DNA from: a virus
Virus record (IMG/VR): IMGVR_UViG_3300022888_000583
Strand: one strand, 5' to 3'
DNA: 64,000 nucleotides
The notes beneath the pieces are model-generated. The model saw only the letters and a program-made list of their open reading frames with translations. It was not told the origin of the DNA and did no database searches. The number at the start of each line of letters is the position of its first letter. Positions within the stretch are counted from its first letter, which is position 1. The translations under genes and the position numbers were made by a program. Below are positions 22,069 to 33,774 of the stretch, in pieces.

Positions 22069-22071
22069 AAT

Positions 22072-22638: not shown

Positions 22639-22655
22639 AATTTTATCCTTTTTAG

Positions 22656-22727: not shown

Positions 22728-22734
22728 ATTTGTG

Positions 22735-22807
22735 TCCTGCCGTGTGGAATCGAACCACAGTCACACCCATACCAAAGGTGTATTCTAACCTTCTAAACTA
22801 CAGCAGG
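22735..22807 (-). tRNA. tRNA-Thr(GGT)
   Basis: Acceptor CCTGCTG/CGGCAGG; anticodon loop TTGGTAT; T-arm TGTGGTTCGATTCCACA. Confidence 0.65.
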
Positions 22808-22810
22808 TTT

Positions 22811-23074
22811 TTACTTACCAACTTTCATATCAAAATTGGCGATTAAATTTTTCACTTTTAGAGGTTCCTCATGCATACCATCTAGAATATAAAATTTATT
22901 CAAAGTAGCTTTCTCGCCCATCATTTTTTGAAGCTTCACAGCTATTTCAAATAGTGTCTCATCATCGACTTCAAAATCAGCATTTATATCTACACAATAT
23001 GTAAACAGAAGTGCTTCAATTATTGCATTCATTTCAACCTTATTTAACTTGTCCACAGTAACCTCCATTACCAA
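22811..23074 (-). CDS. hypothetical protein (87 aa)
   Basis: ORF. Confidence 0.4.
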   Translation of the reverse strand: MVMEVTVDKLNKVEMNAIIEALLFTYCVDINADFEVDDETLFEIAVKLQKMMGEKATLNKFYILDGMHEEPLKVKNLIANFDMKVGK

Positions 23075-23607: not shown

Positions 23608-23791
23608 GTAATTTTACTCCACATCTTGGGCAGTTTTTATTCCACACCGCTCTGGTTTCCATAAAGCTAGGTGATACCATTGTATATTCCTTGTGTCCAA
23701 ATATACGGCACCATAATTTTTTAAGCATTATTCTCTTTGTGCTCCTGCCTTTGGACTTCTTTTTTCTCATCATCTTCACGCTCTTTGGCAA
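23594..23791 (-). CDS. small zinc-ribbon protein (65 aa)
   Basis: CxxC pairs. Confidence 0.3.
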   Translation of the reverse strand: MPKSVKMMRKKKSKGRSTKRIMLKKLWCRIFGHKEYTMVSPSFMETRAVWNKNCPRCGVKLREWN

Positions 23792-23954
23792 TCCGAGTGT
23801 ATTCCTTCATTGTGAATCTGGCAACCCAATTGCCATCTTGATTCTTTTCTTGATGAACGGTAACATCATCTCTAATAATTTCCCTATACCGTTGACCTTC
23901 ACTTATAACTTTAACTTCGCCCATAACTTTTCCTTATAATTTAATTTTGATTTG

Positions 23955-24029
23955 TACGAGTGGCAGGATTTGAACCGACGCTTGCCCAGGATGTCGACCT
24001 GGAGCTCTACCAGACTGAGCTACACCCGC
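23955..24029 (-). tRNA. tRNA-Val(GAC) as read (C33 in the loop is unusual)
   Basis: Acceptor GCGGGTG/CACTCGT; D-arm GCTCAGTCTGGTAGAGC; anticodon loop TCGACAT. Confidence 0.5.
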
Positions 24030-24034
24030 ATTTT

Positions 24035-24262
24035 TTACTCTTGTCCTATTGGACCTTCATATAAAATTTTACTGTCACCAGACCCACGCCAAGTAGTCTT
24101 TTCAACTCTGACCATATCGGTGTCAGTTTCCTTGTCATAGTAAGCGTAACATCTGATTGCTCCGCTCCATGATGCTGTATATGTTTCTATACCTGAATTC
24201 TTAGAACCACCACGACTGGTTTGTCCTCTATTACCTTGTACTGTGCCATAAAATTGTGACAT
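24035..24262 (-). CDS. hypothetical protein (75 aa; GGAGG Shine-Dalgarno; the track ORF over-extends across tRNAs)
   Basis: Internal ATG with a strong Shine-Dalgarno; the upstream part of ORF 24035..24400 overlaps two tRNAs. Confidence 0.4.
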   Translation of the reverse strand: MSQFYGTVQGNRGQTSRGGSKNSGIETYTASWSGAIRCYAYYDKETDTDMVRVEKTTWRGSGDSKILYEGPIGQE

Positions 24263-24282
24263 ATAACCTCCATTTTGTTTAG

Positions 24283-24354
24283 CTGATTCATAGGGATTCG
24301 AACCCCAACCTGACAGGCTCAGAACCTGCGATGCTACCGTTACACCATGAATCA
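24283..24354 (-). tRNA. tRNA-Gln(CTG)
   Basis: Anticodon loop TTCTGAG; T-arm TGGGGTTCGAATCCCTA. Confidence 0.6.
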
Positions 24355-24361
24355 ATTTTTG

Positions 24362-24433
24362 CAGCGGCACCCAGAATCGAACTGGAATCACCGGGTTCAA
24401 AGCCCAGTATAATCAACCGTTATACTATACCGC
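24362..24433 (-). tRNA. tRNA-Gln(TTG)
   Basis: Anticodon loop CTTTGAA; T-loop TTCGATT. Confidence 0.55.
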
Positions 24434-24455
24434 TATTCTTATAATAAGTATCGGG

Positions 24456-24800
24456 TTATTCACCCAAAAGTTGTTCTTTTTTTTCAATGTACTCAAACAG
24501 TTCGGTATAATTGTCATCATAATTATATGGACACGCTTCAATAAATTCCAATGGTTTTGCAGTACCATATCGATCATTTTCATCCCAGTGAATTTCACCG
24601 TCTAAAAATCTATCACCAAATTTATATCGTATTCCATAGAACTGTGTTTTAAATCTACCGTCACCTTTGATACAAACACCGTAACCAAAGTTACGACCGT
24701 GAATCTTATAAAATCCACCGTGGACACATTCTTCTATTGTTATCCACTCGTTAATATGTTCTGCTCTCATTTTTCTTATCCTTTTAATTTGTAGGCCCAC
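24456..24800 (-). CDS. hypothetical protein (114 aa)
   Basis: ORF. Confidence 0.45.
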   Translation of the reverse strand: MGLQIKRIRKMRAEHINEWITIEECVHGGFYKIHGRNFGYGVCIKGDGRFKTQFYGIRYKFGDRFLDGEIHWDENDRYGTAKPLEFIEACPYNYDDNYTELFEYIEKKEQLLGE

Positions 24801-24931
24801 AGGGTAATGATCCCAGTTCTACGGTTTAAAAGACCGTTGCTTCACCATTAAAGCTTTAGGCCCAAATTGATTGGTAGAGCTACCCAATCGGCTTTGATAC
24901 AATCTGGGGCTCTATCTCCCATGATCTCCAC

Positions 24932-25135
24932 CTAATTTCTATCTTTACATTGATACTTGCGGTATTCCTTCCAGCTTCTTTTCCGGTGGAATTTATTATA
25001 TGCATTACAGCCCCGATGTGGGTGACATAATGTACAATATCCTTCATCCATTGCTACTTTAAGTCGGTGGATTTTATTGAATAGTGGACTGTTATCAGTC
25101 CAATCATATTCATAATACGTTATTGATTTCATCAT
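24932..25135 (-). CDS. Cys/His-rich small protein (67 aa)
   Basis: C-x2-C and H-x-x-x-C pattern. Confidence 0.4.
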   Translation of the reverse strand: MMKSITYYEYDWTDNSPLFNKIHRLKVAMDEGYCTLCHPHRGCNAYNKFHRKRSWKEYRKYQCKDRN

Positions 25136-25196
25136 AGTTCTCCTTGTTAGGTTACTATGATGCTGTTCCTTTTTTCATATCAATTCCCTTTTGTCA

Positions 25197-25246
25197 ATAC
25201 CTGAAGATACAAGATTATTCTCACAAAGTCAAGCGTTATTTTAATT
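25197..25246 (-). promoter_or_regulatory. copy 5 of the promoter/leader motif
   Basis: ATACCTGAAGATACAAGATTATTCTCACAAAGTCAAGCGTTATTTTAA. Confidence 0.55.
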
Positions 25247-25512
25247 TAATTTCCTGTAAGCGGGGTTCTGTCCTTTAAACTTGCCATTGACCTATTTGCA
25301 TCAACCTTGCTATTATAGAATTGCTCACCTTCTAAGCTATTTTGAATTACATCCTCACCAGTACGAACGACTATTTCGTGTCTTTCAGGGTTTCTGGTTT
25401 GGCATGATTACTACAAACCCTTTTTCTTTACTCATGCCCTAACAGCTTTAACATACAGTCTCCTGAGTTAAGCAACGATGACCCGACTTTCCTCTCCGTA
25501 GAGCGACAAGTC
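25245..25512 (-). ncRNA. rnpB: candidate minimal RNase P RNA (~270 nt)
   Basis: Minus strand carries GGAGAGGAAAGTCGGGTC (P4 5' strand, compare GAGGAAAGTCCGGGCTCC) and GGACAGAACCCCGCTTACAGG (compare ACAGAACCCGGCTTATCGG) with a compensating single-nt deletion on both P4 strands. The 5' TTTTAATTTCTG and 3' CAGGAAATTAAA can form P1. The region is ORF-free. Confidence 0.45.
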
Positions 25513-25527
25513 AGAAATTAAAATGTG

Positions 25528-25610
25528 AGGAAGGTAGAAGAATCGAACTCCTGCCCGTAAGGACACCCAAGGGTTCAAACCTTGTTGCCGGCCATTCAGC
25601 GGTACCTTCC
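25528..25610 (-). tRNA. tRNA-Ser(TGA), type II
   Basis: Acceptor GGAAGGT/ACCTTCC; anticodon loop TTTGAAC (anticodon UGA reads UCA); long variable arm. Confidence 0.6.
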
Positions 25611-25615
25611 ATTTG

Positions 25616-26041
25616 TTAAATTATATTTATATCATATATCCGTTTTTCTATAATTAATGAATCGAGTTGAATAGAAACATCAATAGAATCGATGTCAAAA
25701 TGAATAGAATCATACCACAGATCAACCCGCCATTGATAATCCAATTCCAAACTATCACATTGTGCTTCTTGGCGGCCATACAATAACCAATAATAATTAA
25801 TATTATCATCGGAATATTCTTTAACATGTGCCGTTGTTGCATGAATTGATTTATTTACATTTATAATTTCAAATGAAATTCTATACATAAGTGTTTGTTC
25901 ACCGTACCATTCTGAACTTACAATGAAATATTCAGTAGTATCGGTAATTATCGGATAAATAATGTCTTCAGTAATACATGGTTCTCCACATGACATTATT
26001 AACATTATAATTATTAATATTAGACTTAATTTTTGCAACAT
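25616..26041 (-). CDS. putative lipoprotein (141 aa)
   Basis: Signal peptide with MSCGEPC lipobox-like site. Confidence 0.5.
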   Translation of the reverse strand: MLQKLSLILIIIMLIMSCGEPCITEDIIYPIITDTTEYFIVSSEWYGEQTLMYRISFEIINVNKSIHATTAHVKEYSDDNINYYWLLYGRQEAQCDSLELDYQWRVDLWYDSIHFDIDSIDVSIQLDSLIIEKRIYDINII

Positions 26042-26164
26042 AATTTTATCCCCTTCTTTCCAATTGTCATGTCGTCTGTTGCAACATGTACTTAGAACAT
26101 GTCTTAATTTTGACGATATTTAGACACGTTATTCGCTCATGTCTATATCTTAGACATGTTATTG

Positions 26165-26253
26165 TACTCCCAGCTGGACTTGAACCAACATCTCGACTTT
26201 ATCAGAATCTGACCTGTTTATAAGACAGGGGCTTTACATTAAGCTATGGGAGC
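26165..26253 (-). tRNA. type II tRNA (23-nt variable region); anticodon loop CTTATAA reads UAU; identity unclear
   Basis: Acceptor GCTCCCA/TGGGAGT; T-arm GTTGGTTCAAGTCCAGC; 89 nt. Confidence 0.4.
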
Positions 26254-26258
26254 ATGTG

Positions 26259-26333
26259 TACTCTCGGCAGGACTCGAACCTGCAACCTTTTGGGTCGAAA
26301 CCAAGAACTCTATTCCAGTTGAGCTACGAGAGC
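26259..26333 (-). tRNA. tRNA-Arg(TCG)
   Basis: Anticodon loop TTTCGAC; T-arm GCAGGTTCGAGTCCTGC. Confidence 0.6.
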
Positions 26334-26338
26334 ATGTG

Positions 26339-26409
26339 TACTGGATGGGGGAATTGAACCCGCGCCTTCTCCATGTAAAAGAGAAATTCTACCATTAAAC
26401 TAATCCAGC
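26339..26409 (-). tRNA. tRNA-Val(TAC)
   Basis: Anticodon loop TTTACAT; T-loop TTCAATT. Confidence 0.5.
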
Positions 26410-26415
26410 GTGTTG

Positions 26416-26487
26416 TGCTCCAGAGCAGACTTGAACTGCCATTCTTGGTATATCAGACCAAAGTTCTACCGTTGAACTACTGGAGAA
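26416..26487 (-). tRNA. tRNA-Ile(GAT)
   Basis: Anticodon loop CTGATAT; T-arm GGCAGTTCAAGTCTGCT. Confidence 0.55.
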
Positions 26488-26493
26488 TGTATG

Positions 26494-26567
26494 TACCTCG
26501 AGTTGGAATTGAACCAACGACCTTTGGTTTATCAGACCAACGCTCTAACCAACTGAGCTACCGAGAT
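26494..26567 (-). tRNA. tRNA-Ile(GAT), second copy with a different body
   Basis: D-arm GCTCAGTTGGTTAGAGC; anticodon loop CTGATAA. Confidence 0.55.
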
Positions 26568-26657
26568 AGGTGCGGACTCATGCGGTGTTTTGGGGGAAAC
26601 TTTGCACAAGCCCTAAAAATTGATGTAAGTTGTGTAGTGATAACGAGATACATCTAA

Positions 26658-26739
26658 TGTCGCAGTGGGGAGACTTGAACTCCCGAGTTGCCGAATATGA
26701 GCCGACACTTACACGCCTGTCTCACTGCGAAAATTGTGA
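26658..26739 (-). ncRNA. tRNA-like element (good T-arm and acceptor, no canonical anticodon or D arms)
   Basis: T-arm GGGAGTTCAAGTCTCCC and acceptor CGCAGTG/CACTGCG; ~70 nt. Confidence 0.25.
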
Positions 26740-26876
26740 CTGGAATTTCGTTTGTAACCGAAGTGCACTTCATCATTACAATTGGCCGTTTCTCCCGATT
26801 CATTGTACGGCATTGATTCTAGGGTTATTCCGATTAAATGATAATTGTACCTATACCATTTAAAGTTGTCACATAG

Positions 26877-26949
26877 CGGCCTAAGCCAGATTCGAACTAG
26901 CAACGCGAGGTACTTCACACCTCCGCTCTACCATTGGAGCTATTAGGCC
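26877..26949 (-). tRNA. tRNA-Phe(GAA)
   Basis: Acceptor GGCCTAA/TTAGGCC; anticodon loop GTGAAGT. Confidence 0.7.
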
Positions 26950-26963
26950 ATATTTAATTTTTG

Positions 26964-27045
26964 TCCCGTTAGATGGAGTCGAACCAACATTGTCCATAGA
27001 CGACGGCTTTACAGGCCGCGGGGCATCCACTTGCCCAATAACGGG
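26964..27045 (-). tRNA. tRNA-Tyr(GTA), type II
   Basis: Acceptor CCCGTTA/TAACGGG; anticodon loop CTGTAAA; long variable arm. Confidence 0.65.
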
Positions 27046-27050
27046 TTGTG

Positions 27051-27124
27051 TACTCCCACAGGGATTCGAACCCCGACTAAAAGCTTAGAAGGCTCTTGTG
27101 CTAATCCTGTTACACTATGGGAGC
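27051..27124 (-). tRNA. tRNA-Arg(TCT)
   Basis: Anticodon loop CTTCTAA; T-arm CGGGGTTCGAATCCCTG. Confidence 0.65.
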
Positions 27125-27129
27125 AGTGC

Positions 27130-27315
27130 TTAATCTTTAAACTTGAACCATATTCTTCGGCCCACTTCGATGGTTGCACCGATTGAAATCATTGCCCCAG
27201 CCATAACAAGACCGTGAGACATTAAAGACAATCCAGCGATAAAGTACAATACAAATCTCAATGCTCCGAAATATGTAAATTCCCTATCTATTGCGTATCG
27301 TTCATCTACTGTCAT
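27130..27315 (-). CDS. small hydrophobic membrane protein (61 aa)
   Basis: Track ORF; two predicted TM segments. Confidence 0.3.
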   Translation of the reverse strand: MTVDERYAIDREFTYFGALRFVLYFIAGLSLMSHGLVMAGAMISIGATIEVGRRIWFKFKD

Positions 27316-27342
27316 TTTAATAACCCTTTCTTTTTAAATTTT

Positions 27343-27415
27343 GTACACCCGGTAGGTTACGATCCTACGACCTTGAGTTTAAGAGACTCCTGCTCTGCCA
27401 ACTGAGCTACGGGTG
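27343..27415 (-). tRNA. tRNA-Lys(CTT)
   Basis: Anticodon loop CTCTTAA; unusual T-loop ATCGTAA. Confidence 0.55.
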
Positions 27416-27423
27416 CGTTTGTG

Positions 27424-27497
27424 CAGGGGTATCAGGATTCGAACCCGATCTTCATGGTTTTGGAGACCATCGTGCTACCGTTAAACACTATACCCCT
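27424..27497 (-). tRNA. tRNA-Trp(CCA)
   Basis: Acceptor AGGGGTA/TACCCCT; anticodon loop CTCCAAA. Confidence 0.65.
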
Positions 27498-27504
27498 ATG
27501 TATG

Positions 27505-27579
27505 TAGTCCCCCAGGGAGTCGAACCCTGACATTGAACGGGTCTAAGCCGCACGCCTCTACCAGTTGGGCCAGAGGACC
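27505..27579 (-). tRNA. tRNA with anticodon UAG (Leu-type) but a short variable arm (type I), A73
   Basis: Anticodon loop CTTAGAC; T-arm CAGGGTTCGACTCCCTG; 6-nt variable region. Confidence 0.45.
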
Positions 27580-27593
27580 ATTATTTGTTTTTG

Positions 27594-27666
27594 TAGCATT
27601 GGTGAGATTCGAACTCACACTGGACGATTTTTGAAACCGCTTTCTCTGCCGTTGGAATACAATGCC
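27594..27666 (-). tRNA. tRNA with anticodon CAA (Leu-type) but a short variable arm (type I), A73
   Basis: Anticodon loop TTCAAAA; T-arm GTGAGTTCGAATCTCAC. Confidence 0.45.
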
Positions 27667-27689
27667 ATTTACCTAATTTTAATTTTTGA

Positions 27690-27778
27690 TTGTGGACACA
27701 ATGGGAATCGAACCCATTACGATGTTATTCTAATTTTAAATAAGTGGAAATTGAATTTTGATCGTATCCGATATGTCC
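27690..27778 (-). ncRNA. tRNA-like with a ~40-nt AT-rich insertion (intron-bearing tRNA or degenerate)
   Basis: T-arm ATGGGTTCGATTCCCAT and acceptor GGACATA/TGTGTCC; body not canonical. Confidence 0.2.
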
Positions 27779-27779
27779 T

Positions 27780-28690
27780 TGGTAGGGTTGAGATTATACC
27801 CTTTATAGTATCCCTTTGGGAAGATTATTTATTCCTTCCTGTGTCCACGACAACCCGCTAGGGTCTATACTCTTGCGAGTAGTAAGATACCAGTCCCAGT
27901 AGGTTTAGCCTACCACTCTTATCGTTCAGGTTATCTCCACAGTTACTTATTGCTATTCAATCTTGCAGGACTGACTAAGGTTTTAACACCACTAGAACTT
28001 TCGCCATAAAACATCCGCACCTTGTGAGTTTGGTTGCCCCCGATTCATCCGAAGATGTCAGGGATTAGGGAATTTTGCTCCTAAACGCTGTCGGTCTTTT
28101 TACTTTTCAGTGAAGTGGGAATTGAACCCACACCAGTTCGCTTAGAATGCGAATTGCCTAACCAATGAGGCGATTCATGATGTATTGTGGATATTAGAAT
28201 CTGCGCCGACCAGCGATGGCGTCCTCCCTTTTGAGGAACACATACCATTCAGATTCATACCATTTCCTGGATAAGGAATTTTAGCGGTTCTTAATTATTT
28301 CCAGTTTCACCCTGCGATGAAATGTTTAGTTATACATTACAATCCAGCGTTTTACCACTCATGCAATGCTTTCCCTAGAAAATACACATAATTACTAGAA
28401 TCAAGCCCTCAGTATCCCTACCTTGAACAAGACGCTCTGGCAATCCCTATTGGATTTCTCCTCACCGGCTGTTCCACGACAACCAGATACAATCCTCTCG
28501 TTCCTGGTGGAATCTGAGGTTCATATGTTAAACCATTGTATAGATGTCTCCTATTACTAAGAGCGGCTGTTCTACGAGCCCTTTAGTCCCACTTTCGTAG
28601 GGTTATCTTCATCACCCGAAGGTGAAGCGAATCCATACATCCGAATTCTATAATTTCAAAAAACTTTGACACTCTTTCGTGTCGATGATC
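27780..28690 (-). ncRNA. ~900-nt ORF-free structured region downstream of a degenerate promoter copy; candidate large ncRNA, intron or split tRNA
   Basis: No ORF of 60 aa or more, even allowing TGA as sense. Contains a UUCG tetraloop hairpin (CACCTTCGGGTG), GNRA hairpins (CCTACGAAAGTGGG; GACACGAAAGAGTGTC) and a tRNA-like T-arm (GTGGGTTCAATTCCCAC) at 28112-28135. Confidence 0.3.
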
Positions 28691-28728
28691 AATATACAAG
28701 ATTTAAATGTAAAAGTCAAGCGTTTTTT
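28691..28728 (-). promoter_or_regulatory. copy 6 (degenerate) of the promoter motif
   Basis: AATATACAAGATTTAAATGTAAAAGTCAAGCGTTTTTTT. Confidence 0.4.
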
Positions 28729-28829
28729 TCAATTTTCTTAACTTTTTTTCTCATTCCGTATTTGTATATATATATTAGGTTATAAGCCCAAACACCATTT
28801 TTATTTCAAAAAAGTGATTTTATTTTAAG

Positions 28830-28904
28830 TACTCCCAGAAGGATTTGAACCTCCGACCCCTTGGTTCGTAGCCAAGTGCTCTATTCCAGCTGAGCTATGG
28901 GAGC
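28830..28904 (-). tRNA. tRNA-Arg(ACG)
   Basis: Anticodon loop CTACGAA; T-arm GGAGGTTCAAATCCTTC. Confidence 0.65.
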
Positions 28905-29066
28905 GTGATTTTTACTTTTTGTACTGTATATTTCCACATGGAATTTTTATCATTTTGTTCCTTAACGTACGCTTTAGCGTCCGGTTTGGATTCGTATGCC
29001 GAGTCAATTTCTGAATCTCGGTTTCCATATTTTAATTTACTTAGTACCACATATACAATTTTCATT

Positions 29067-29198
29067 TTACCAGCCTTTTTTGTGTTTAGATTTACGATTA
29101 TATTTAGTCTTATCCTTAAACACTTTCCGAGTTGGAATTGTGGTACGCATCTCAGGTCGGATGCGATTTTTGTCTTTTCTTATTAGTTTCTTTTTCAT
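29067..29198 (-). CDS. very basic small protein (43 aa, or 27 aa from an internal Met)
   Basis: MKKKLIRKDKNRIRPEMRTTIPTRKVFKDKTKYNRKSKHKKGW immediately after motif copy 7. Confidence 0.3.
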   Translation of the reverse strand: MKKKLIRKDKNRIRPEMRTTIPTRKVFKDKTKYNRKSKHKKGW

Positions 29199-29244
29199 AC
29201 CTGAAGATACAAGATTATATTGACAAAGTCAAGCGTTATTTTCG
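29195..29244 (-). promoter_or_regulatory. copy 7 of the promoter/leader motif
   Basis: Full consensus copy. Confidence 0.55.
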
Positions 29245-29264
29245 CTTATTTGAAAATAATTTTG

Positions 29265-29336
29265 ATCCCCCGACCGGCCACGATCCGATACCAAAGCTTT
29301 ACAAGAGCCTTATTCTGCCAATTAAACTACAGGGGA
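29265..29336 (-). tRNA. tRNA-Thr(TGT) (unusual T-loop ATCGTGG)
   Basis: Anticodon loop CTTGTAA. Confidence 0.5.
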
Positions 29337-29348
29337 ATTTGTATTGCT

Positions 29349-29432
29349 CATGCGGTAGGATTCGAACCTACGACGTCGCTCTCGCGAAACAGATTAACAG
29401 TCTGCCACCATCGGCCTCTCGGTCACACATGA
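29349..29432 (-). tRNA. type II tRNA; anticodon loop CTGTTAA reads GUU; identity unclear
   Basis: Acceptor TCATGTG/CGCATGA; variable-arm hairpin TCGCGAGAGCGA; T-arm GTAGGTTCGAATCCTAC. Confidence 0.4.
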
Positions 29433-29434
29433 AT

Positions 29435-30010
29435 TTATATTTTTCTATAAGATTCTATTAATCCCATTTTAAACAATTCTTTTCCAGTAAGAATTTCCAA
29501 TTCAAGTGGGAATCATTCCCACTTAGCTTCATCTTTTGGAGTCTTATAACCCTTTACTTCAACATATTGTTTTTGTTTAATCAAATAAAAATCTGGAGTA
29601 TATCTATGCCCTTTATTTTCATATTCATAATAAAAATTTTCTTTTGGTCTTCTTCATAGGATATCATTATCATCTAATCATTTGGCATAATTTAATTCTC
29701 ATTTGCCATATAATTTAACCATACCATTGCATTTACTATCATATAAATGTGTTCTACTTTTGGAAAATGAATTATGTCATGTTCCATCTTTAATTTTTTC
29801 ATTTATAGTTTTTCGTATTTTTGATTTGGTTTCATCAGATACATTTTGTCTAGGATGACCATCGGTTACTTTTTTTATCCAATTATTTCTATTTGGATTT
29901 GATTTGCAACTAACACTATGCCCTCCTAATTTTCTACCATCATCAAATTTCATTCCACAATGTTTACAAATGCTATTACCAGACCCCTTAAATCTTTTTG
30001 CATTATCCAT
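29435..30010 (-). CDS. zinc-finger / HNH-like endonuclease-type protein (~191 aa) with 4 in-frame TGA, embedded in the tRNA array
   Basis: N-terminus CKHCGMKF...GGHSVSCKSNPNRNNWIKK; the frame runs through TGA at 29777, 29699, 29678, 29654 and 29513 to TAA at 29435. Confidence 0.45.
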
Positions 30011-30089
30011 ATAAATTTCCTCTTTATTATAAGTATTAAAGAATACAAAAATATACAGACTAACGCTCTAAATAGTTTTAAAATTTTTG

Positions 30090-30161
30090 CTCCGACGACA
30101 AGATTTGAACTTGCATTACCCTGTTTAACAAACAGACGCTTTACCCATTAGCTACGTCGGA
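30090..30161 (-). tRNA. tRNA-Asn(GTT)
   Basis: Acceptor TCCGACG/CGTCGGA; anticodon loop TTGTTAA. Confidence 0.65.
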
Positions 30162-30204
30162 AATTGGATTGGGTTTTTGAATAGAACCCTTCTGTAAACT
30201 ATTA

Positions 30205-30281
30205 TGGGGTGACTAGCGGGATTCGAACCCGCACTATCTGGGTCACAGCCGGACGTGCTAACCATTATCACTATAGCCACC
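30205..30281 (-). tRNA. tRNA-His(GTG) with G-1 and an encoded CCA
   Basis: Extra 5' G pairs with C73; anticodon loop CTGTGAC; 3' CCA present. Confidence 0.65.
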
Positions 30282-30300
30282 ATGTATGTTTTTTTGTTTG

Positions 30301-30373
30301 AGTACACGGTCAGAATCGAACTGACGTCCTCCGGGTTTGCAATCCAGTGCCTATGCCTCTCAGCCACGTGTAC
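30301..30373 (-). tRNA. tRNA-Cys(GCA)
   Basis: Acceptor GTACACG/CGTGTAC; anticodon loop TTGCAAA. Confidence 0.5.
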
Positions 30374-30601
30374 ATTAATGGAAACCAATCTCTTTACTGA
30401 GCTACATTGCTTCTAGCTCCCCCGCCGAAACGGATCATCACTATAATGCAAAGACTGGAGTTGAACCAGTGACCACAAGTTTATCAGTCTGGTGCTCTTT
30501 TTAGGTTTCTCAATTGGATTCGAGGTAAGGAATTACACCTTTGTTTTTCTAATACAATGGTTCGTCAACCAAAGCATATACGCCTTTAACGCTCTCAAGT
30601 G

Positions 30602-30674
30602 TAGTTCCATAGGGGATCGAACCCTAATCTCGGGCTTGAGAAGCCCGTATCCTATCCGGTTAGACGATGGAACC
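30602..30674 (-). tRNA. tRNA-Glu(CTC)
   Basis: Anticodon stem CGGGC/GCCCG; loop TTCTCAA. Confidence 0.6.
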
Positions 30675-30680
30675 ATAATG

Positions 30681-30753
30681 TCGTCTATCGGGGAATCGAA
30701 CCCCGCTCTCAGCCTTGAAAGGGCTGTGACATAAACCGATAGTCCAATAGACG
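30681..30753 (-). tRNA. tRNA-Glu(TTC)
   Basis: Anticodon stem CAGCC/GGCTG; loop CTTTCAA. Confidence 0.6.
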
Positions 30754-30758
30754 CTGTG

Positions 30759-30833
30759 TAGCTCCAGAGGGGAACAATCCCTCTTCTCTGCCTTGAAAGG
30801 GCAGTATCCTGTATCATCCTAGACGATGGAGCC
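30759..30833 (-). tRNA. tRNA-Glu(TTC), second copy (T-loop ATTGTTC)
   Basis: Anticodon stem CTGCC/GGCAG; loop CTTTCAA. Confidence 0.5.
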
Positions 30834-30897
30834 AATTATAGAATTTTGTATCAAGTACGAGAATCTGCTTGTGGACAAATATCTATTAAAACCGCCG

Positions 30898-30968
30898 TGG
30901 GTCGTGAAGGAATCGAACCTCCATCCGTGGGGTTACAGTCCAGTATACTACCGTTGTACGAACGACCC
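30898..30968 (-). tRNA. tRNA, anticodon loop CTGTAAC (GUA?) with a weak anticodon stem; possible pseudo-tRNA
   Basis: Good acceptor GGGTCGT/ACGACCC and T-arm. Confidence 0.3.
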
Positions 30969-31027
30969 AAATTGTGAGAATTTTTAATTATATACCGCTC
31001 CCAGATTTTCTCTAACTGGCGGATTGT

Positions 31028-31100
31028 GGATACATGACGGCTTCGAACCCTCATCCTTCTGTTTGCAAAACAGATGCTTTCCCAATTAAGCTAATGACCC
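31028..31100 (-). tRNA. tRNA-Ala(TGC)-like with acceptor mismatches (no G3-U70); likely pseudo-tRNA
   Basis: Anticodon arm TCTGT-TTTGCAA-ACAGA. Confidence 0.3.
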
Positions 31101-31183
31101 GACTGCAAATTCTTTACAGGATAGTGCTAGACTGAAGGAACACCTTTGACCTATGATCACTTGATCTCCGGCTGTGTTACTTG

Positions 31184-31255
31184 TGGAGTTACTCGGTTAC
31201 GATCCGAGGACTTCTGGTTGCAAACCAGAGATTTTCCCGATTAAACTATAACCCC
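31184..31255 (-). tRNA. tRNA-Ala(TGC)
   Basis: Acceptor GGGGTTA/TAACTCC with G3-U70; anticodon loop TTTGCAA. Confidence 0.65.
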
Positions 31256-31261
31256 ATTGTG

Positions 31262-31333
31262 CGGAACTGATGGGTAACGATCCCACTTCCACGGCTTGAC
31301 AAGCCGTTGTCCATGCCTACTGACTCCAGTTCC
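31262..31333 (-). tRNA. tRNA-Asp(GTC)
   Basis: Anticodon stem ACGGC/GCCGT; loop TTGTCAA. Confidence 0.65.
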
Positions 31334-31557
31334 AGATATCCATTGTACTTCTGAATGTACCTTAAATTACCATTGTAATTATGATGCAGGATTGGCATCA
31401 GCGGTTTCGGTAAGTGAACCTGCTGAATATCGTATCACTTCTGTCGCAGTGACCAGACCTTGGTTAATTTCGACTCATATACCAAGAATGAACCGGAACG
31501 CTATGACCCCATATCGTCCCATAGGGAGTACGCTAGTACTATTTCAGATTTAGTGGC

Positions 31558-31625
31558 GGGGCCAGAAATCGCATCTGGAAACGTGAGCTTATGAGGCTCC
31601 GTGGCACTTAGCTCCCCGCAATGTA
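31558..31625 (-). ncRNA. small structured RNA / tRNA-like (possible CAU anticodon loop CTCATAA, reduced D-arm)
   Basis: Acceptor-like GCGGGGA...CCCCGC; T-arm-like CCAGATGCGATTTCTGG. Confidence 0.2.
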
Positions 31626-31629
31626 TATT

Positions 31630-31863
31630 TTAATATAATTGGTTTTTGTATAGTGCTCTATAACGAGTGGTGTCCCCGTCATTGATAATTGTGTATGTTC
31701 CATCGCTATCCGCTACAAGTTCCAATATCGGATCAACTTGTTCCAAGCTTTCCAATGCCGAATTATGAACTTGTTCTTCAGTATAACTTAGGAATAGGAA
31801 TGCGAAAATTACGGTAATCCATATTACCCGTGTCCAATGATTTTTTGTAATCTTAAACATCAA
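31630..31863 (-). CDS. small secreted/membrane protein (77 aa)
   Basis: Track ORF; hydrophobic N-terminus. Confidence 0.35.
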   Translation of the reverse strand: MMFKITKNHWTRVIWITVIFAFLFLSYTEEQVHNSALESLEQVDPILELVADSDGTYTIINDGDTTRYRALYKNQLY

Positions 31864-31869
31864 AAACCT

Positions 31870-32214
31870 CTAGTCGCAAAAGCATGACACTACATGGTCA
31901 ATGGTAACTGGCAGATGTAATTCTGCATCTGAATTATGGATAGCATTACTTGTGCGATATCCTTCTTCATAATATTCTTTTCTAGGAGAATACAATTCCC
32001 GTTCGATGTCAGCCTTAACTGTGGCCGAAACTTTATCCGTAGGAAACCACGCGTCCAAATCAATAATATTATATGAAGATGGATCGCTATGGCTCTGTGA
32101 AATTACCATTACTATCATTTTGTTACCTTTATTTTTTAGGAGTAAATTTATCACTAAAGATGTAATTGAAAGCCCAATCGCTTTCATATCTCCCAAGTGA
32201 TAATACAAGTACAA
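31870..32214 (-). CDS. hypothetical protein (114 aa)
   Basis: Track ORF. Confidence 0.35.
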   Translation of the reverse strand: MYLYYHLGDMKAIGLSITSLVINLLLKNKGNKMIVMVISQSHSDPSSYNIIDLDAWFPTDKVSATVKADIERELYSPRKEYYEEGYRTSNAIHNSDAELHLPVTIDHVVSCFCD

Positions 32215-32418
32215 GACCTTCGCCTATCAATAATATTCCATAAATGAAATATTTCCAATTTGTTGAAGCTTTTACATGTCGTCTAATTTTGTTACTCATT
32301 TTTTCCTTTTTAATTTTAATAGGAGCTATGAGGAAAGCATTTCACTTCCATCTGATTATTTCCGCAGTACCGAACTGTTTGATAACCCGCATTCTGTTAT
32401 ACTATCATAGCGTGTTTG

Positions 32419-32491
32419 GCGAGTACACCGGGATCGAACCGGCAACCTCCGGCGTGACAGGCCGGTGTGCTTCCACTTGCACCTCTACTCG
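32419..32491 (-). tRNA. tRNA-Asp(GTC), second copy, CCA encoded
   Basis: Anticodon stem CCGGC/GCCGG; loop CTGTCAC. Confidence 0.55.
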
Positions 32492-32708
32492 AGATAAGCT
32501 CATGTGGTTTACAAATCCACTTCTAAAACCAATGCATCAGTCTCCAAGTATAGAGCGATACTTAAAATCATTTTTTAAAAGAAGTGATTTTCAAACTTTG
32601 GTTACCTTCAGTTTCCTTGAAAACACCTTTCTTAGACCCAAGATGAATGGAAGGCCCCTAATTAACCCCTAGGAAGGCGGTGTTTACTGTCACCGCAGTG
32701 TAATTTGG

Positions 32709-32783
32709 AACGGGATATCAGATTCGAACTGATACTTTAAGATTGGAAGTCTCGCGTGCTAAGCCGTTAAACACTAATCCCGC
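32709..32783 (-). tRNA. tRNA-Gly(TCC)
   Basis: Anticodon loop CTTCCAA; T-arm ATCAGTTCGAATCTGAT. Confidence 0.6.
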
Positions 32784-32834
32784 ATTGGTCGGATTGGGAA
32801 CTTCTCCATAGTGGATAATTCCCGCTCCTGTTTG

Positions 32835-32908
32835 TACACCCGGTAGGCAACGATCCTACAACCTTGGGCTTAAAAGGCCCCTGCTCTGCCAAATTGAGCT
32901 ACGAGTGC
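32835..32908 (-). tRNA. tRNA-Lys(TTT)
   Basis: Anticodon loop CTTTTAA; T-loop ATCGTTG. Confidence 0.6.
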
Positions 32909-33136
32909 ATAAAATTTTTGGAGTAGATTTCCATTATCACCCTGCAGGAATGAAATGGTACTCCACGGTCACAAAAAGTTTGAGTGAGATTCGAACCCAC
33001 CAGCTTACTGTATATTAGTCAAATTGAAACCCTTCGAATTGTTTCAACCTGAGAATATTCAGTAGCATCTGCCCTACTGCATCCATTCCCGTTAACCACG
33101 CTTTTGTATAAATTTTTTGTCTGGGGTGCAGGAGTC

Positions 33137-33209
33137 GAACCTGCCAAAACCATGTTTCCAAAACACAGCCGCCACCCCGACTGTTACCCCAGTTATGTAG
33201 CCCCCAATT
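33137..33209 (-). tRNA. tRNA-Pro(TGG)
   Basis: Acceptor CTGGGGT/ACCCCAG; anticodon loop TTTGGAA. Confidence 0.55.
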
Positions 33210-33531
33210 AAGGGGACTACTATATGTCAAATAATCACACGAGATACCTCGTAGTAACTATTTTGTTTTTTTACTATTATACCCAACTGTCAAAAAACCG
33301 ATGTGGCTGTACAATCACTAACAGCTGTGTAACTTCCCGTCAATTGGGTGATGAGCCCAAGCTAGACTGACACAACGAAGGTCAGTCGGCGATTTACATT
33401 TTTCTCCAATCGCAAATTATATAAAAGTGCAGTGAGCTTTAGAATTCTCACATTTCCAGCTGAAAGGCCGGCGACTTACCCTTAGTCCATACACATTCTT
33501 TCAAAAATCTTAGAAACTTATTCCGTTTCTA

Positions 33532-33600
33532 TCATACCTGAAGATACAAGATTATATTGACAAAGTCAAGCGTTTTCTTTGATTATCTTCATTTATTTTT
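33532..33600 (-). promoter_or_regulatory. copy 8 of the promoter motif, with the extended upstream AAATAAATGAAGATAATCAAAGAAAACG element
   Basis: Full consensus; drives a ~300-nt non-coding leader into tRNA-Pro. Confidence 0.55.
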
Positions 33601-33630
33601 CAATAAGCCGAGAAACCTTTTCGTTTCTCA

Positions 33631-33690
33631 CATACCTGAAGATACAAGATAAAAATGACAAAGTCAAGCGTTTTCTTTGATTATCTTCAA
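33631..33690 (-). promoter_or_regulatory. copy 9 of the promoter motif (tandem with copy 8, ~100 nt apart)
   Basis: CATACCTGAAGATACAAGATAAAAATGACAAAGTCAAGCGTTTTCTTTGATTATCTTCA. Confidence 0.55.
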
Positions 33691-33699
33691 TTATTTTTG

Positions 33700-33774
33700 T
33701 ACCCGCCCCGAGGCTCGAACTCGGAACTACTGGATTTTAAGTCCAGTCCCTCTTTCCATTTGGGGTAGACGGGC
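33700..33774 (-). tRNA. tRNA with anticodon UAA (Leu-type), short variable arm (type I), A73
   Basis: Acceptor GCCCGTC/GGCGGGT; anticodon stem CTGGA/TCCAG; loop CTTAAAA; T-arm CCGAGTTCGAGCCTCGG. Confidence 0.55.

What the first reader, a model, noticed from the sequence alone, without database searches (positions are those of the whole stretch)
26165..33774. Unusual tRNA architecture: three type-I tRNAs carry Leu anticodons and two type-II tRNAs carry non-type-II anticodons
The three tRNAs with Leu-type anticodons (UAG at 27505..27579, CAA at 27594..27666, UAA at 33700..33774) all have 4-6 nt variable regions, although bacterial tRNA-Leu normally has a long extra arm; all have A73. Conversely the long-variable-arm tRNAs at 26165..26253 and 29349..29432 read UAU and GUU, while canonical Asn-GUU and two Ile-GAU copies also exist. 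Several isoacceptors are duplicated with divergent bodies (Glu x3, Asp x2, Ile x2, Ala plus a degenerate Ala). No elongator or initiator tRNA-Met (CAU) was identified.
Basis: seen in the sequence. Interest (0 to 1): 0.6.

Follow-up and report, generated by a model that had tools for sequence, protein, structure and literature searches.

The report
Phage tRNAs with swapped variable arms
A large phage's 41-gene tRNA cluster holds leucine tRNAs that lack the usual long extra arm and asparagine and isoleucine tRNAs that have gained one; these forms recur widely in phages, and the isoleucine one belongs to a large family, which I could not find described, with a conserved extra hairpin.

Summary
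ARAGORN and the Rfam tRNA model agree on three short-variable-loop tRNAs with Leu anticodons (UAG, CAA, UAA) and two long-arm tRNAs with UAU and GUU anticodons. They lie in a 41-tRNA array of a large phage that also carries tmRNA, GOLLD RNA, a mini RNase P-like RNA and RNA-repair genes.

None is an artefact or pseudogene. A 66%-identical relative keeps the three Leu tRNAs and the UAU tRNA with compensatory stem changes.

None is unique to this window:
- **Type-I Leu:** 16 of 50 tRNA-Leu in an unbiased IMG/VR sample. It keeps the Leu D-arm, A15/U48 and A73.
- **Type-II Asn(GUU):** present in phiKZ and E. coli phage 4MG, with at least 111 distinct IMG/VR sequences. It keeps U1-A72 and G73.
- **Type-II UAU:** at least 119 distinct sequences. 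The extra arm is a covarying 3-bp stem with a conserved loop YAGAUWA (CUGAUAA here, identical to the tRNA-Ile(GAU) anticodon loop).

Standard decoding on remodelled bodies is the most likely reading. Evasion of tRNA-cleaving defences, and a role of the GAU loop in IleRS recognition, are inferences. I found no paper describing these phage classes.

The parts
27504..27579 (-). Type-I tRNA with Leu anticodon UAG. V loop is 5 nt. It has G1.U72, A73, a 3-bp D stem, D loop CAACUGGUAGA, and U48.
   Evidence: ARAGORN. Rfam 40.7 bits. Ortholog L003:8196-8271 shows compensatory acceptor and anticodon-stem changes. The closest relatives are type-I tRNA-Leu of Pseudomonas, Streptomyces and Mycobacterium phages.
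27593..27666 (-). Type-I tRNA with Leu anticodon CAA. V loop is 5 nt. It has G1.U72, A73 and a Leu-type D-arm (UUC-CAACGGCAGA-GAA).
   Evidence: Rfam 48.1 bits. Ortholog L003:7989-8062 shows compensatory changes in the acceptor, anticodon and T stems. It is similar to type-I tRNA-Leu of Lactobacillus phage Bacchae.
33699..33774 (-). Type-I tRNA with Leu anticodon UAA, the first gene of the array. V loop is 4 nt. It has G1.U72, A73 and D-arm CCC-CAAAUGGAAAGA-GGG.
   Evidence: Rfam 48.3 bits. The minimum-energy fold is a cloverleaf. Ortholog L003:2594-2669 has a compensatory anticodon-stem change.
26164..26253 (-). Type-II tRNA with anticodon UAU (reads AUA). It has A73, a 4-bp D stem and a 23-nt variable region. 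The family-supported fold of that region is a short hairpin (AUU/AGU plus G-C) with the 7-nt loop CUGAUAA.
   Evidence: (57.2 bits). Ortholog L003:11094-11185. Family evidence.
29346..29432 (-). Type-II tRNA with anticodon GUU (Asn codons). It has U1-A72, C2-G71 and G73. The D-arm UGACCGAGAGGCCGAUGGU is of the Ser/Tyr type. The V arm is UCGC-GAGA-GCGA.
   Evidence: (50.4 bits). Relatives occur in phiKZ, 4MG and others. D-arm survey. Family.
30897..30968 (-). Type-I tRNA with Tyr anticodon GUA (V = 5 nt, A73).
   Evidence: Rfam 53.8 bits. Ortholog L003:5086-5158 has changed stems.
26963..27045 (-). Type-II tRNA-Tyr(GUA) with C1-G72 and A73. It is the conventional long-arm partner of the type-I Tyr.
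   Evidence: Rfam gives only 28.9 bits. It is nearly identical to L003:8885-8968.
26659..26730 (-). tRNA-like gene with anticodon loop CUCAUAU (CAU: Met or Ile2). It has a 7-bp acceptor stem, A73 and a reduced D-arm (3-bp stem, 4-nt loop).
   Evidence: Found by ARAGORN only at -ps90 and not reported by Rfam at E<=1. The minimum-energy fold is a cloverleaf, z = -1.8. It is syntenic with tRNA(CAU) at L003:10198-10272 and differs by compensatory changes.
30089..30161 (-). Canonical type-I tRNA-Asn(GUU) (U1-A72, C2-G71, G73), the reference for the acceptor end of the type-II GUU tRNA.
   Evidence: (61.7 bits).
26415..26567 (-). Two type-I tRNA-Ile(GAU) genes. Their anticodon loops are CUGAUAU and CUGAUAA; the second is identical to the V-hairpin loop of the UAU tRNA.
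16585..33774 (-). The whole array: 41 tRNA genes on one strand, interspersed with small ORFs, GOLLD RNA, an RNase P-like RNA and a Tpt1 gene.

Best explanation
These are genuine, selected tRNA genes of a large phage. They most likely decode by the standard code, as Leu, Asn and Ile, on bodies whose variable arm has been removed or added.

Leu tRNAs: they are tRNA-Leu bodies that lost the long arm but kept what bacterial LeuRS reads, namely A73, the 3-bp D stem with its 10-11-nt D loop, and the A15:U48 pair. Together they form the phage's complete and only Leu set; UAA, CAA and UAG can cover all six codons.

GUU tRNA: it is a Tyr/Ser-type long-arm body with Asn determinants installed (GUU, G73, U1-A72).

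UAU tRNA: it is an ordinary type-I-like body that carries an extra short hairpin displaying a GAU triplet in an anticodon-loop-like heptaloop. It supplies AUA decoding without lysidine.

Shown: the structures, their conservation, covariation, and wide recurrence in phages. Inferred: the amino-acid identities. Also inferred: that arm remodelling is maintained because it makes phage tRNAs poor substrates for host tRNA-targeting defence nucleases while synthetases still accept them, and that the GAU hairpin helps Ile-specific recognition.
For: Real and under selection:
- Covariance-model scores are 40-57 bits.
- The 66%-identity relative L003/L062 keeps the three type-I Leu and the type-II UAU in synteny, with compensatory changes in acceptor, anticodon and T stems.

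Leu identity:
- Among 31 unique type-I phage tRNA-Leu, A73 occurs in 27, a 3-bp D stem in 28, A14A15 in 26 and U48 in 26.
- These values match 42 type-II phage tRNA-Leu (38, 36, 34, 33).
- They differ from 673 other type-I tRNAs (4-bp D stem in 525; C48 in 378).
- A. aeolicus LeuRS still charges a V-arm-deleted tRNALeu, whereas deleting U48 abolishes charging (PMC2377443).
- S. coelicolor LeuRS charges a natural type-I tRNALeu (PMC6614811).

Recurrence of type-I Leu:
- Cultured phages carrying it include Lactobacillus phage Bacchae (the same UAG/UAA/CAA trio), Pseudomonas PE09, E. coli phage 4MG, and Streptomyces, Mycobacterium, Vibrio and Serratia phages.
- In an unbiased IMG/VR sample, 16 of 50 tRNA-Leu are type I.

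Asn identity:
- The window's GUU tRNA shares U1-A72, C2-G71 and G73 with its own canonical Asn. Its own Ser tRNAs are G1-C72, G2-C71, U73, and its type-II Tyr is C1-G72, A73.
- Of 111 unique type-II Asn(GUU), 91 have U1-A72.
- In the phiKZ and 4MG stretches examined, the type-II tRNA is the only Asn tRNA present.

UAU family:
- A search that did not constrain the V region gave 119 unique type-II tRNA(UAU); 115 have GAU in the V region.
- The loop logo is Y, A(108), G, A, U, W, A(107).
- The three closing pairs are 97-100% paired with 4-5 pair types each, against 5-74% in shifted registers.
- RNAalifold predicts the hairpin independently, with 4, 20 and 11 double-sided changes.
- The motif occurs in 119 of 136 type-II UAU tRNAs but only 3 of 433 other type-II tRNAs.

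Defence context:
- The window encodes an Rnl1-type RNA ligase, an RlaP nucleotidyltransferase and a Tpt1 2'-phosphotransferase.
- Septu and Retron-Eco7 PtuAB cleave the variable loop of tRNATyr, and phage tRNATyr with a different variable loop escapes (PMC13096335, PMC12673091).

Codon use: UUA+UUG are 64% of Leu codons, AUA 21% of Ile and AAU 74% of Asn in the window's ORFs.
Against: - No aminoacylation, expression or modification data exist for any of these tRNAs.
- E. coli LeuRS did not charge the S. coelicolor type-I tRNALeu (PMC6614811), so acceptance by a given host LeuRS is not assured.
- A V-loop-deleted phage tRNATyr failed to neutralise Retron-Eco7 in E. coli (PMC12673091). Arm deletion can therefore cost function.
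- The type-II GUU tRNA is not conserved in the L003 lineage, where the slot holds a degenerate tRNA-like sequence. A canonical Asn tRNA exists in the window, so the gene may be dispensable here.
- A long arm plus G73 could in principle attract SerRS, and A73 plus A15:U48 on the UAU tRNA could attract LeuRS.
- The V-loop of the UAU family has A rather than U at the U33-equivalent position, and A or U at the 37-equivalent position. It is not a faithful anticodon loop.
- By the standard L-shape (my knowledge), a 3-bp V hairpin does not sit where IleRS binds the anticodon.
- The host is unknown.
Confidence: 0.62

Rival explanations
1. Sense-codon recoding or deliberate mistranslation. Synthetases that ignore the anticodon would charge these tRNAs according to their bodies. 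LeuRS would charge the long-arm UAU tRNA (AUA read as Leu, as shown in vitro for nematode nev-tRNAIle(UAU)). SerRS would charge the long-arm GUU tRNA (AAY read as Ser). The short-arm 'Leu' tRNAs would be charged by another enzyme.
For: - nev-tRNAIle(UAU), a V-arm tRNA with the same anticodon, is charged only with Leu in vitro (PMC4300185).
- The UAU tRNA has A73, and U48 occurs in 85 of 119 family members.
- The GUU tRNA's D-arm, UGACCGAGAGGCCGAUGGU, is found mostly in phage tRNA-Ser, 31 of 36 holders. G73 is also a Ser-type discriminator in many of those.
Against: - The UAU family has a 4-bp D stem with a 6-8-nt loop. Its V arm is a 3-bp stem with a conserved 7-nt loop, unlike any Leu V arm.
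- The GUU tRNA lacks G1-C72 and G2-C71 and carries the Asn-type U1-A72 and C2-G71. U1-A72 is held by 91 of 111 family members.
- The phage's own Ser tRNAs use U73.
- In the phiKZ and 4MG stretches examined, the type-II tRNA is the only Asn tRNA. That fits supply of Asn better than mistranslation.
- The type-I Leu tRNAs carry every Leu-specific core feature and no G3:U70 or other foreign determinant.
- They are the phage's only Leu tRNAs, for codons that make up 7% of its coding sequence.
Confidence: 0.12
2. Non-translational tRNA mimics. Some of these genes, especially the duplicates (type-II GUU beside a canonical Asn; type-II UAU beside two Ile-GAU), would act as decoys or sponges for host tRNA-targeting nucleases or toxins, or as regulatory tRNA-like RNAs. 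The GAU hairpin would be bait that mimics the anticodon loop of host tRNA-Ile.
For: - Redundant isoacceptors with divergent bodies are common in the array: Glu x3, Asp x2, Lys x3, Arg x6, Tyr x2, Asn x2.
- Overexpressed tRNATyr partly suppresses Septu-mediated degradation of host tRNATyr (PMC13096335).
- RNA-repair genes lie in the same window.
- The V-loop resembles an anticodon loop but lacks U33. That would fit a mimic not meant to decode.
Against: - All of these tRNAs keep intact acceptor stems, isotype-appropriate discriminators and normal T-arms. Most family members encode CCA.
- The anticodon UAU fills a decoding gap, since no other AUA reader was detected except the doubtful CAU gene.
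- The Leu set is the only one in the array.
- No nuclease targeting tRNA-Ile(GAU) turned up in the papers I read; I did not search for one specifically.
Confidence: 0.13
3. Prediction artefacts or decaying pseudogenes in a fast-evolving tRNA array, with no functional meaning in the arm lengths.
For: - The array does contain degenerate members: Ala at 31028-31100, the tRNA inside GOLLD at 31.8 bits, and the CAU gene with a reduced D-arm.
- The GUU-II slot has decayed in the L003 lineage.
- Shuffle z-scores of single-sequence folds are weak for several of these tRNAs.
Against: - Two programs agree on the folds.
- Orthologs show compensatory substitutions.
- Each class comprises many diverged sequences with covarying stems, in unrelated phages including cultured ones.
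Confidence: 0.03

Closest known systems
Type-I tRNALeu(CAA) of Streptomyces coelicolor (PMC6614811)
   Same: It is a Leu-anticodon tRNA with a 5-nt variable loop in a bacterial-type translation system, and a bacterial LeuRS charges it. The window's UAG tRNA aligns at full length with tRNA-Leu genes of Streptomyces phages.
   Different: The S. coelicolor tRNA coexists with type-II isoacceptors in a cell whose LeuRS has an adapted leucine-specific domain, and A73 is not an identity element there. Here all three Leu tRNAs are type I, phage-encoded and carry A73, and the host LeuRS is unknown. E. coli LeuRS did not charge the S. coelicolor tRNA.
[quoted passage not shown]
   Same: It has a long variable arm on a tRNA with the Ile anticodon UAU, and it exists beside ordinary tRNA-Ile.
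   Different: The nev-tRNA V arms resemble those of tRNA-Leu, and the tRNAs are charged with Leu. The phage family has a non-Leu core (4-bp D stem) and a distinct 3-bp hairpin with the conserved loop YAGAUWA.
Bacterial tRNAIle(UAU) of Mycoplasma mobile and Lactobacillus plantarum (cited in PMC9976931; details from my own knowledge)
   Same: It decodes AUA with a UAU anticodon, independent of lysidine.
   Different: Those are type-I tRNAs paired with IleRS variants that accept UAU. Lactobacillus phage Bacchae likewise has a plain type-I tRNA(UAU). The window's tRNA carries the extra GAU hairpin.
Phage tRNATyr with a distinctive variable loop that escapes Retron-Eco7/Septu PtuAB (PMC11555353, PMC12673091, PMC13096335)
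   Same: A phage-encoded isoacceptor differs from the host's in the variable arm, in a setting where host nucleases cut that arm. The window pairs a type-II and a type-I tRNA-Tyr and encodes RNA-repair enzymes.
   Different: In that case the arm is lengthened or altered, not removed, and its deletion abolished rescue in E. coli. No nuclease specific for Leu, Asn or Ile variable regions came up in the papers I read.
allo-tRNAs with 8/4 or 9/3 acceptor/T-stem geometry (PMC5389517)
   Same: They are long-arm tRNAs with anticodons outside Leu/Ser/Tyr, found in bacteria and their phages.
   Different: The window's tRNAs have the canonical 7/5 geometry.

Membership tests
tRNA (Rfam RF00005) | The cloverleaf covariance model scores above the gathering score of 29 bits over the full model. 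| tested here: met
   Scores are 40.7, 48.1, 48.3, 57.2 and 50.4 bits over model positions 1-71.
Bacterial tRNA-Leu | Leu anticodon and discriminator A73. | tested here: met
   The anticodons are UAG, CAA and UAA, and all three tRNAs have A73.
Bacterial tRNA-Leu | Leu-type core: a 3-bp D stem, a 10-11-nt D loop with A14 A15 and GG, and U48. | tested here: met
   All three window tRNAs have this core. The same holds for 26-28 of 31 type-I phage Leu and 33-36 of 42 type-II phage Leu.
Bacterial tRNA-Leu | Long variable arm of at least 10 nt (class II). | tested here: not met
   The variable regions are 5, 5 and 4 nt.
Bacterial tRNA-Leu | Leucylation by LeuRS. | not testable with these tools
   This needs a charging assay. 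Literature precedent is mixed.
Bacterial tRNA-Asn | Anticodon GUU with G73, and U1-A72 as in most bacterial tRNA-Asn. | tested here: met
   The type-II GUU tRNA has U1-A72, C2-G71 and G73, as does the window's canonical Asn. 91 of 111 family members have U1-A72.
Bacterial tRNA-Asn | Class I body with a 4-5-nt variable loop. | tested here: not met
   The variable region is 16 nt, with a 4-bp stem and a GAGA loop.
Bacterial tRNA-Ser | Long variable arm with the G1-C72/G2-C71 acceptor end. Recognition does not depend on the anticodon. | tested here: not met
   The long arm and a Ser-type D-arm are present. The acceptor end is U1-A72/C2-G71, and the phage's own Ser tRNAs have U73.
Bacterial tRNA-Tyr | Long arm, A73 and anticodon GUA. 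| tested here: not met
   Outside its own family, the closest body is a phage tRNA-Tyr (L015). The window tRNA, however, has G73 and U36.
nev-tRNA (V-arm tRNA charged with Leu) | The V arm and core resemble tRNA-Leu. | tested here: not met
   The UAU tRNA has a 4-bp D stem, a 6-nt D loop, and a V hairpin of 3-4 bp with a 7-nt conserved loop.
allo-tRNA | 8/4 or 9/3 acceptor/T-stem configuration. | tested here: not met
   All five tRNAs have the 7/5 configuration.
Phage V-hairpin tRNA(UAU) family (defined here) | UAU anticodon, a variable region of about 21 nt, a hairpin of at least 3 bp closing a heptaloop Y-(A/U)-G-A-U-W-A, and 13 nt from the loop to G53. | tested here: met
   The window has loop CUGAUAA closed by U-A, U.G, A-U and G-C, with 13-nt spacing. 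Its single-sequence minimum-energy fold prefers another small hairpin.
Phage V-hairpin tRNA(UAU) family (defined here) | Charged with Ile. | not testable with these tools
   GenBank annotates members as tRNA-Ile from the anticodon alone.

The most novel reading that the evidence does not exclude
The extra hairpin of the phage tRNA(UAU) family is a surrogate anticodon loop. It would present the G-A-U triplet, with C32- and A38-like flanks, that IleRS uses as its main identity mark. A tRNA whose real anticodon is UAU could then be charged with Ile in hosts whose IleRS reads G34 or lysidine-34 and rejects U34. Phages would gain AUA decoding that is independent of TilS and portable between hosts. 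The replacement of U33 by A, and the loose position 37, would keep the mimic from acting as a second anticodon. A variant reading is that the AUW in the loop pairs with the UAU anticodon of the precursor and guides or blocks U34 modification.
Probability: 0.22. Interest if true: 0.85.

Novelty: new variant of a known kind. Interest (0 to 1): 0.6.

Why it matters
The class I/class II split of tRNAs is treated as fixed, with Leu, Ser and bacterial Tyr long-armed and everything else short-armed. A 2019 study called coexistence of type-I and type-II tRNALeu in one bacterial cell a first.

The data here suggest that phages break the rule routinely. About a third of phage tRNA-Leu in an unbiased sample lack the arm. 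Large families of phage tRNA-Asn and tRNA-Ile(UAU) have gained one, including in laboratory phages such as phiKZ, 4MG, Vibrio Thalassavirus phages and Stenotrophomonas phage DLP6.

This gives testable handles on three questions:
- What do bacterial LeuRS, AsnRS and IleRS really require of the tRNA core?
- How do phages decode AUA without lysidine?
- Is variable-arm remodelling a general escape route from tRNA-cleaving defence systems?

It also matters for annotation and for codon-usage models, which name these genes from the anticodon alone.

Tried and rejected
- **Close relatives among cultured phages.** Megablast of the array found none. The window's UAU tRNA has no blastn hit at E<=0.01. 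Cultured members of its family appeared only when other family members were used as queries. A third query found nothing.
- **A second flanking protein as a route to relatives.** The ORF at 25616-26041 gave only an unrelated locus without tRNAs.
- **Extra type-II tRNAs at relaxed ARAGORN thresholds.** The calls at 27692-27778 (UUA) and 32322-32411 (CAA) have poor stems. I treat them as false positives.
- **Introns.** ARAGORN's intron mode added no genes.
- **G1.U72 plus A73 as a Leu-specific mark.** Rejected. Many isotypes in this array share it (Arg, Val, Lys and others).
- **Nearest-neighbour typing of the UAU tRNA body.** The best hits were Arg, Val and Glu tRNAs at low scores, which is uninformative.
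- **First readings of the UAU variable arm.** I first took ARAGORN's different V-stem drawings for L052 and L161 at face value. Family covariation favours the 3-bp stem with a heptaloop instead.
- **Anticodon-like V loops in other odd type-II tRNAs.** Asn, Lys, Thr, His and Ile(GAU) long-arm tRNAs mostly have GNRA-type loops, so the feature is specific to UAU.
- **Literature.** Eight full-text searches found no description of phage type-I tRNALeu, type-II tRNAAsn or V-arm tRNAIle(UAU). The library lacks most subscription journals, so this is not proof of absence.
- **Host identification.** The 787-aa ORF matched only an uncultured 484-kb phage and a Microcystis phage, at about 36% identity. 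The host remains unknown.
- **Larkin et al. 2002.** The paper on minimal E. coli tRNALeu substrates could not be read.

Full report
**What the window is**

All genes up to about 52 kb lie on the minus strand and G+C is about 37%. ARAGORN finds 41 tRNA genes between 16.5 and 33.8 kb and a tmRNA at 4238-4594. Rfam adds a GOLLD RNA at 27785-28257 with a tRNA inside it. It also gives a sub-threshold but full-length RNase P class A match at 25241-25522.

The proteins include:
- GroEL, ClpP and peptide deformylase;
- an NAD salvage set (NAPRTase, NadE, an isochorismatase-family protein that may be a nicotinamidase, and a Nudix protein);
- Mom and a SAM lyase;
- three RNA-repair enzymes: a T4 Rnl1-type ligase, an RlaP nucleotidyltransferase, and Tpt1/KptA.

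No cultured phage is close. Relatives exist in metagenomes: near-identical contigs (L057, L058), a 66%-identity lineage with a syntenic 35-tRNA array (L003, L062-L064), and an 83% lineage without the array. This is a large, uncultured phage. Its host is unknown.

**The observation**

ARAGORN and the Rfam tRNA model agree on all five tRNAs and on where their anticodon loops lie.
- The three Leu-anticodon tRNAs have variable regions of 5, 5 and 4 nt, and all have A73.
- The UAU tRNA has a 23-nt variable region and the GUU tRNA a 16-nt one.
It appears only at a relaxed threshold, but it is syntenic with a normal tRNA(CAU) in the relative.

**Real genes, not decay**

Between the window and L003, the three Leu tRNAs and the UAU tRNA differ by paired substitutions that keep the acceptor, anticodon and T stems intact. 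The GUU long-arm tRNA is present in the near-identical contig L057, but its slot is degenerate in L003.

**The Leu tRNAs are tRNA-Leu bodies without the arm**

All three have the 3-bp D stem, a D loop of the form xAAyUGGxAGA, A14A15 and U48, as bacterial tRNA-Leu do.

I collected phage tRNAs from loci fetched for unrelated reasons.

| Feature | Type-I Leu (n=31 unique) | Type-II Leu (n=42) | Other type-I tRNAs (n=673) |
|---|---|---|---|
| A73 | 27 | 38 | not scored |
| 3-bp D stem | 28 | 36 | 135 (4-bp in 525) |
| A14A15 | 26 | 34 | 177 |
| U48 | 26 | 33 | 189 (C48 in 378) |

The same architecture is annotated simply as tRNA-Leu in several cultured phages:
- Lactobacillus phage Bacchae, which has the same UAG, UAA, CAA trio;
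- Pseudomonas phage PE09;
- E. coli phage 4MG;
- Streptomyces, Mycobacterium, Vibrio and Serratia phages.

In a sample of 120 IMG/VR loci chosen by a generic D-arm word, 16 of 50 unique tRNA-Leu are type I.

The literature treats type-I tRNALeu in bacteria as a rarity known from Streptomyces coelicolor. That tRNA is charged by its own LeuRS but not by the E. coli enzyme (PMC6614811). With Aquifex LeuRS, deleting the arm mainly lowers affinity, whereas deleting U48 abolishes charging (PMC2377443).

The window has no type-II Leu tRNA. UUA and UUG make up 64% of its Leu codons.

**The GUU long-arm tRNA is an Asn tRNA on a Tyr/Ser-type body**

Its D-arm, UGACCGAGAGGCCGAUGGU, is found in IMG/VR mostly in tRNA-Ser (31 of 36 holders), in two tRNA-Tyr and in three long-arm Asn tRNAs. 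Outside its own family, its closest body is a phage tRNA-Tyr.

Its acceptor end (U1-A72, C2-G71, G73) matches the window's canonical Asn. It does not match the window's Ser tRNAs (G1-C72, G2-C71, U73) or its type-II Tyr (C1-G72, A73).

Homologues annotated as tRNA-Asn occur in phiKZ (87 nt by ARAGORN), 4MG, GAP31, VIK251, 7t3 and others. It yielded 111 unique long-arm tRNA(GUU), 91 of them with U1-A72. Their V stems vary and their loops are mostly GNRA, with GAAA in 39. In the unbiased sample, 3 of 49 tRNA-Asn (48 with a GUU anticodon) are long-armed.

**The UAU long-arm tRNA belongs to a large family with a specific extra hairpin**

Two unrelated long-arm tRNA(UAU) turned up in the unbiased samples (L052, L161). 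Both share with the window a CWGAUDA heptamer exactly 13 nt before G53.

- **Motif-free search.** A second pattern left the variable region free and also hit the limit. It gave 119 unique long-arm tRNA(UAU), of which 115 have GAU in the variable region.
- **Loop logo.** Y (C 95, U 20), A (108), G, A, U, W (A 76, U 35), A (107).
- **Covariation.** The three pairs that close this loop are 97-100% paired with 4-5 pair types each. Shifted registers give 5-74%.
- **Independent prediction.** RNAalifold on 37 sequences of under 80% identity predicts the hairpin on its own, with 4, 20 and 11 double-sided changes.
- **Specificity.** The motif is present in 119 of 136 long-arm UAU tRNAs but only 3 of 433 other long-arm tRNAs.
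- **Cultured members.** These are annotated tRNA-Ile in Vibrio Thalassavirus phages and in Stenotrophomonas phage DLP6.

The window's loop, CUGAUAA, is a minority variant. It is identical to the commonest anticodon loop of phage tRNA-Ile(GAU) and to that of its own neighbour at 26493-26567. The family consensus differs from a true anticodon loop in two ways. It has A at the U33-equivalent position, where U is found in 97.6% of real loops. It tolerates U at the 37-equivalent position, where a purine is found in 98.6%.

**Mechanism**

*Shown:* the structures, selection on them, and their wide recurrence in phages.

*Inferred:* standard identities. For each tRNA, the acceptor end and core match the amino acid named by its anticodon.

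*Also inferred:* a selective reason for the arm changes. The best available lead is defence. Septu and Retron-Eco7 PtuAB cut the variable loop of tRNATyr, and phage tRNATyr with a different loop escapes. VapC52 and MenT3 read or cut variable regions, according to their abstracts. This phage carries tRNA-repair enzymes.

Against a simple version of this idea, a V-loop-deleted phage tRNATyr lost its rescuing activity in E. coli.

For the GAU hairpin I propose a role in Ile-specific recognition. From my own knowledge, typical IleRS read G34 or lysidine-34 and handle U34 poorly, and Mycoplasma mobile and lactic acid bacteria have adapted enzymes. The titles cited are consistent with this. The expected position of a short V hairpin in the L-shape is an unresolved objection.

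**Comparison with known systems**

The nearest precedents are:
- S. coelicolor type-I tRNALeu;
- nematode nev-tRNAIle(UAU), which is Leu-charged;
- bacterial type-I tRNAIle(UAU);
- variable-loop variants of phage tRNATyr;
- allo-tRNAs.

Each shares one feature and fails on another, as set out in the membership table. I found no paper that describes these phage classes. The library is incomplete, so this is not proof of absence.

**Verdict**

The finding is not a local oddity. It is a clear example of phage-wide remodelling of tRNA variable arms, and one of the classes carries a strongly conserved element of unknown function.

Noticed in passing
window 25241-25522 (-); L062:20123-20326: A 282-nt RNA matches the whole bacterial RNase P class A model at 41.9 bits (gathering score 100, E about 1e-11). 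It keeps GAGGAAAGUC and ACAGAACCCnGCUUACA but lacks most of the specificity domain. It lies inside the tRNA array, next to tRNA-Ser. The 66% relative has a 204-nt version at the syntenic place (46.4 bits). It may be a phage-encoded minimal RNase P RNA. One literature search found no report of one.
   Followed up: partly
window 27785-28257 (-), with tRNA-like 28107-28180; L062:15628-16098: A GOLLD RNA (190 bits) sits in the middle of the tRNA array and encloses a weak tRNA-Arg(UCU)-like element (31.8 bits). It is conserved in the relative, where a tRNA lies inside it at 15704-15775.
   Followed up: partly
window: tRNAs at 21418, 22655, 24791, 27343, 29264, 30758, 31183, 31261, 32834 (start coordinates, - strand): Nine of the 41 tRNAs have T loops that begin with A instead of T54 (GGAUCGUAACC-type, with a U at the usual A58 place). 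Elsewhere this occurs in 26 of 838 phage tRNAs. Four occur in the relative L003.
   Followed up: partly
window 26659-26730 (-): A CAU-anticodon tRNA-like gene has a 3-bp D stem and a 4-nt D loop. Default ARAGORN and Rfam miss it. It is syntenic with a normal tRNA(CAU) in L003.
   Followed up: partly
window 30897-30968 (-) and 26963-27045 (-): A type-I tRNA-Tyr(GUA) stands beside a type-II tRNA-Tyr(GUA) that has C1-G72, the archaeal/eukaryotic-type first pair. Both are conserved in L003.
   Followed up: partly
window 45913-46998, 47245-48027, 23068-23607, 20340-20942 (all -): An RNA-repair gene set is present: a T4 Rnl1-type RNA ligase, an RlaP-family nucleotidyltransferase, a Tpt1/KptA 2'-phosphotransferase (inside the tRNA region) and a metallophosphoesterase. 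This suggests the phage faces tRNA-cleaving defences.
   Followed up: partly
window 5561-11466 (-): A block of NAD and nucleotide metabolism and chaperone genes: a GMP reductase/IMPDH-like protein, an isochorismatase-family protein (possibly a nicotinamidase), a Nudix protein, NAD synthase, GroEL and NAPRTase. It may counter NAD-depleting defences.
   Followed up: no
window 4238-4594 (-): A phage-encoded tmRNA (96.9 bits) has the unusual tag GTNYAYPVAA.
   Followed up: no
window, whole array: Many tRNAs of different isotypes share G1.U72 (or another weak 1:72 pair) with A73. Nearly all encode C74 but not CCA, and only His and Gly(UCC) encode CCA. In the UAU family, G1.U72 is also the commonest first pair, in 48 of 119.
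   Followed up: no
L059 and L060 (83%-identity relatives of ORF 34133-34648): This lineage lacks the tRNA array within the fetched flanks of the shared ORF. It has a single 95-nt long-arm tRNA called SeC(UCA), a possible UGA suppressor.
   Followed up: no
window 29492-29806: A stretch between the long-arm GUU tRNA and the canonical Asn tRNA matches a 462-kb uncultured huge phage (LR756500.1) at 65.6% identity. It was not annotated or analysed here.
   Followed up: no
IMG/VR loci L009, L011, L036, L015, L080, L119, L066, L098: Other normally short-armed isotypes also occur with long variable arms in phages: Thr(UGU), Lys(UUU, CUU), His(GUG), Met(CAU) and Gln(UUG). Most have GNRA-like V loops. 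Asn, Lys, Thr, Ile and Met all read ANN codons.
   Followed up: no
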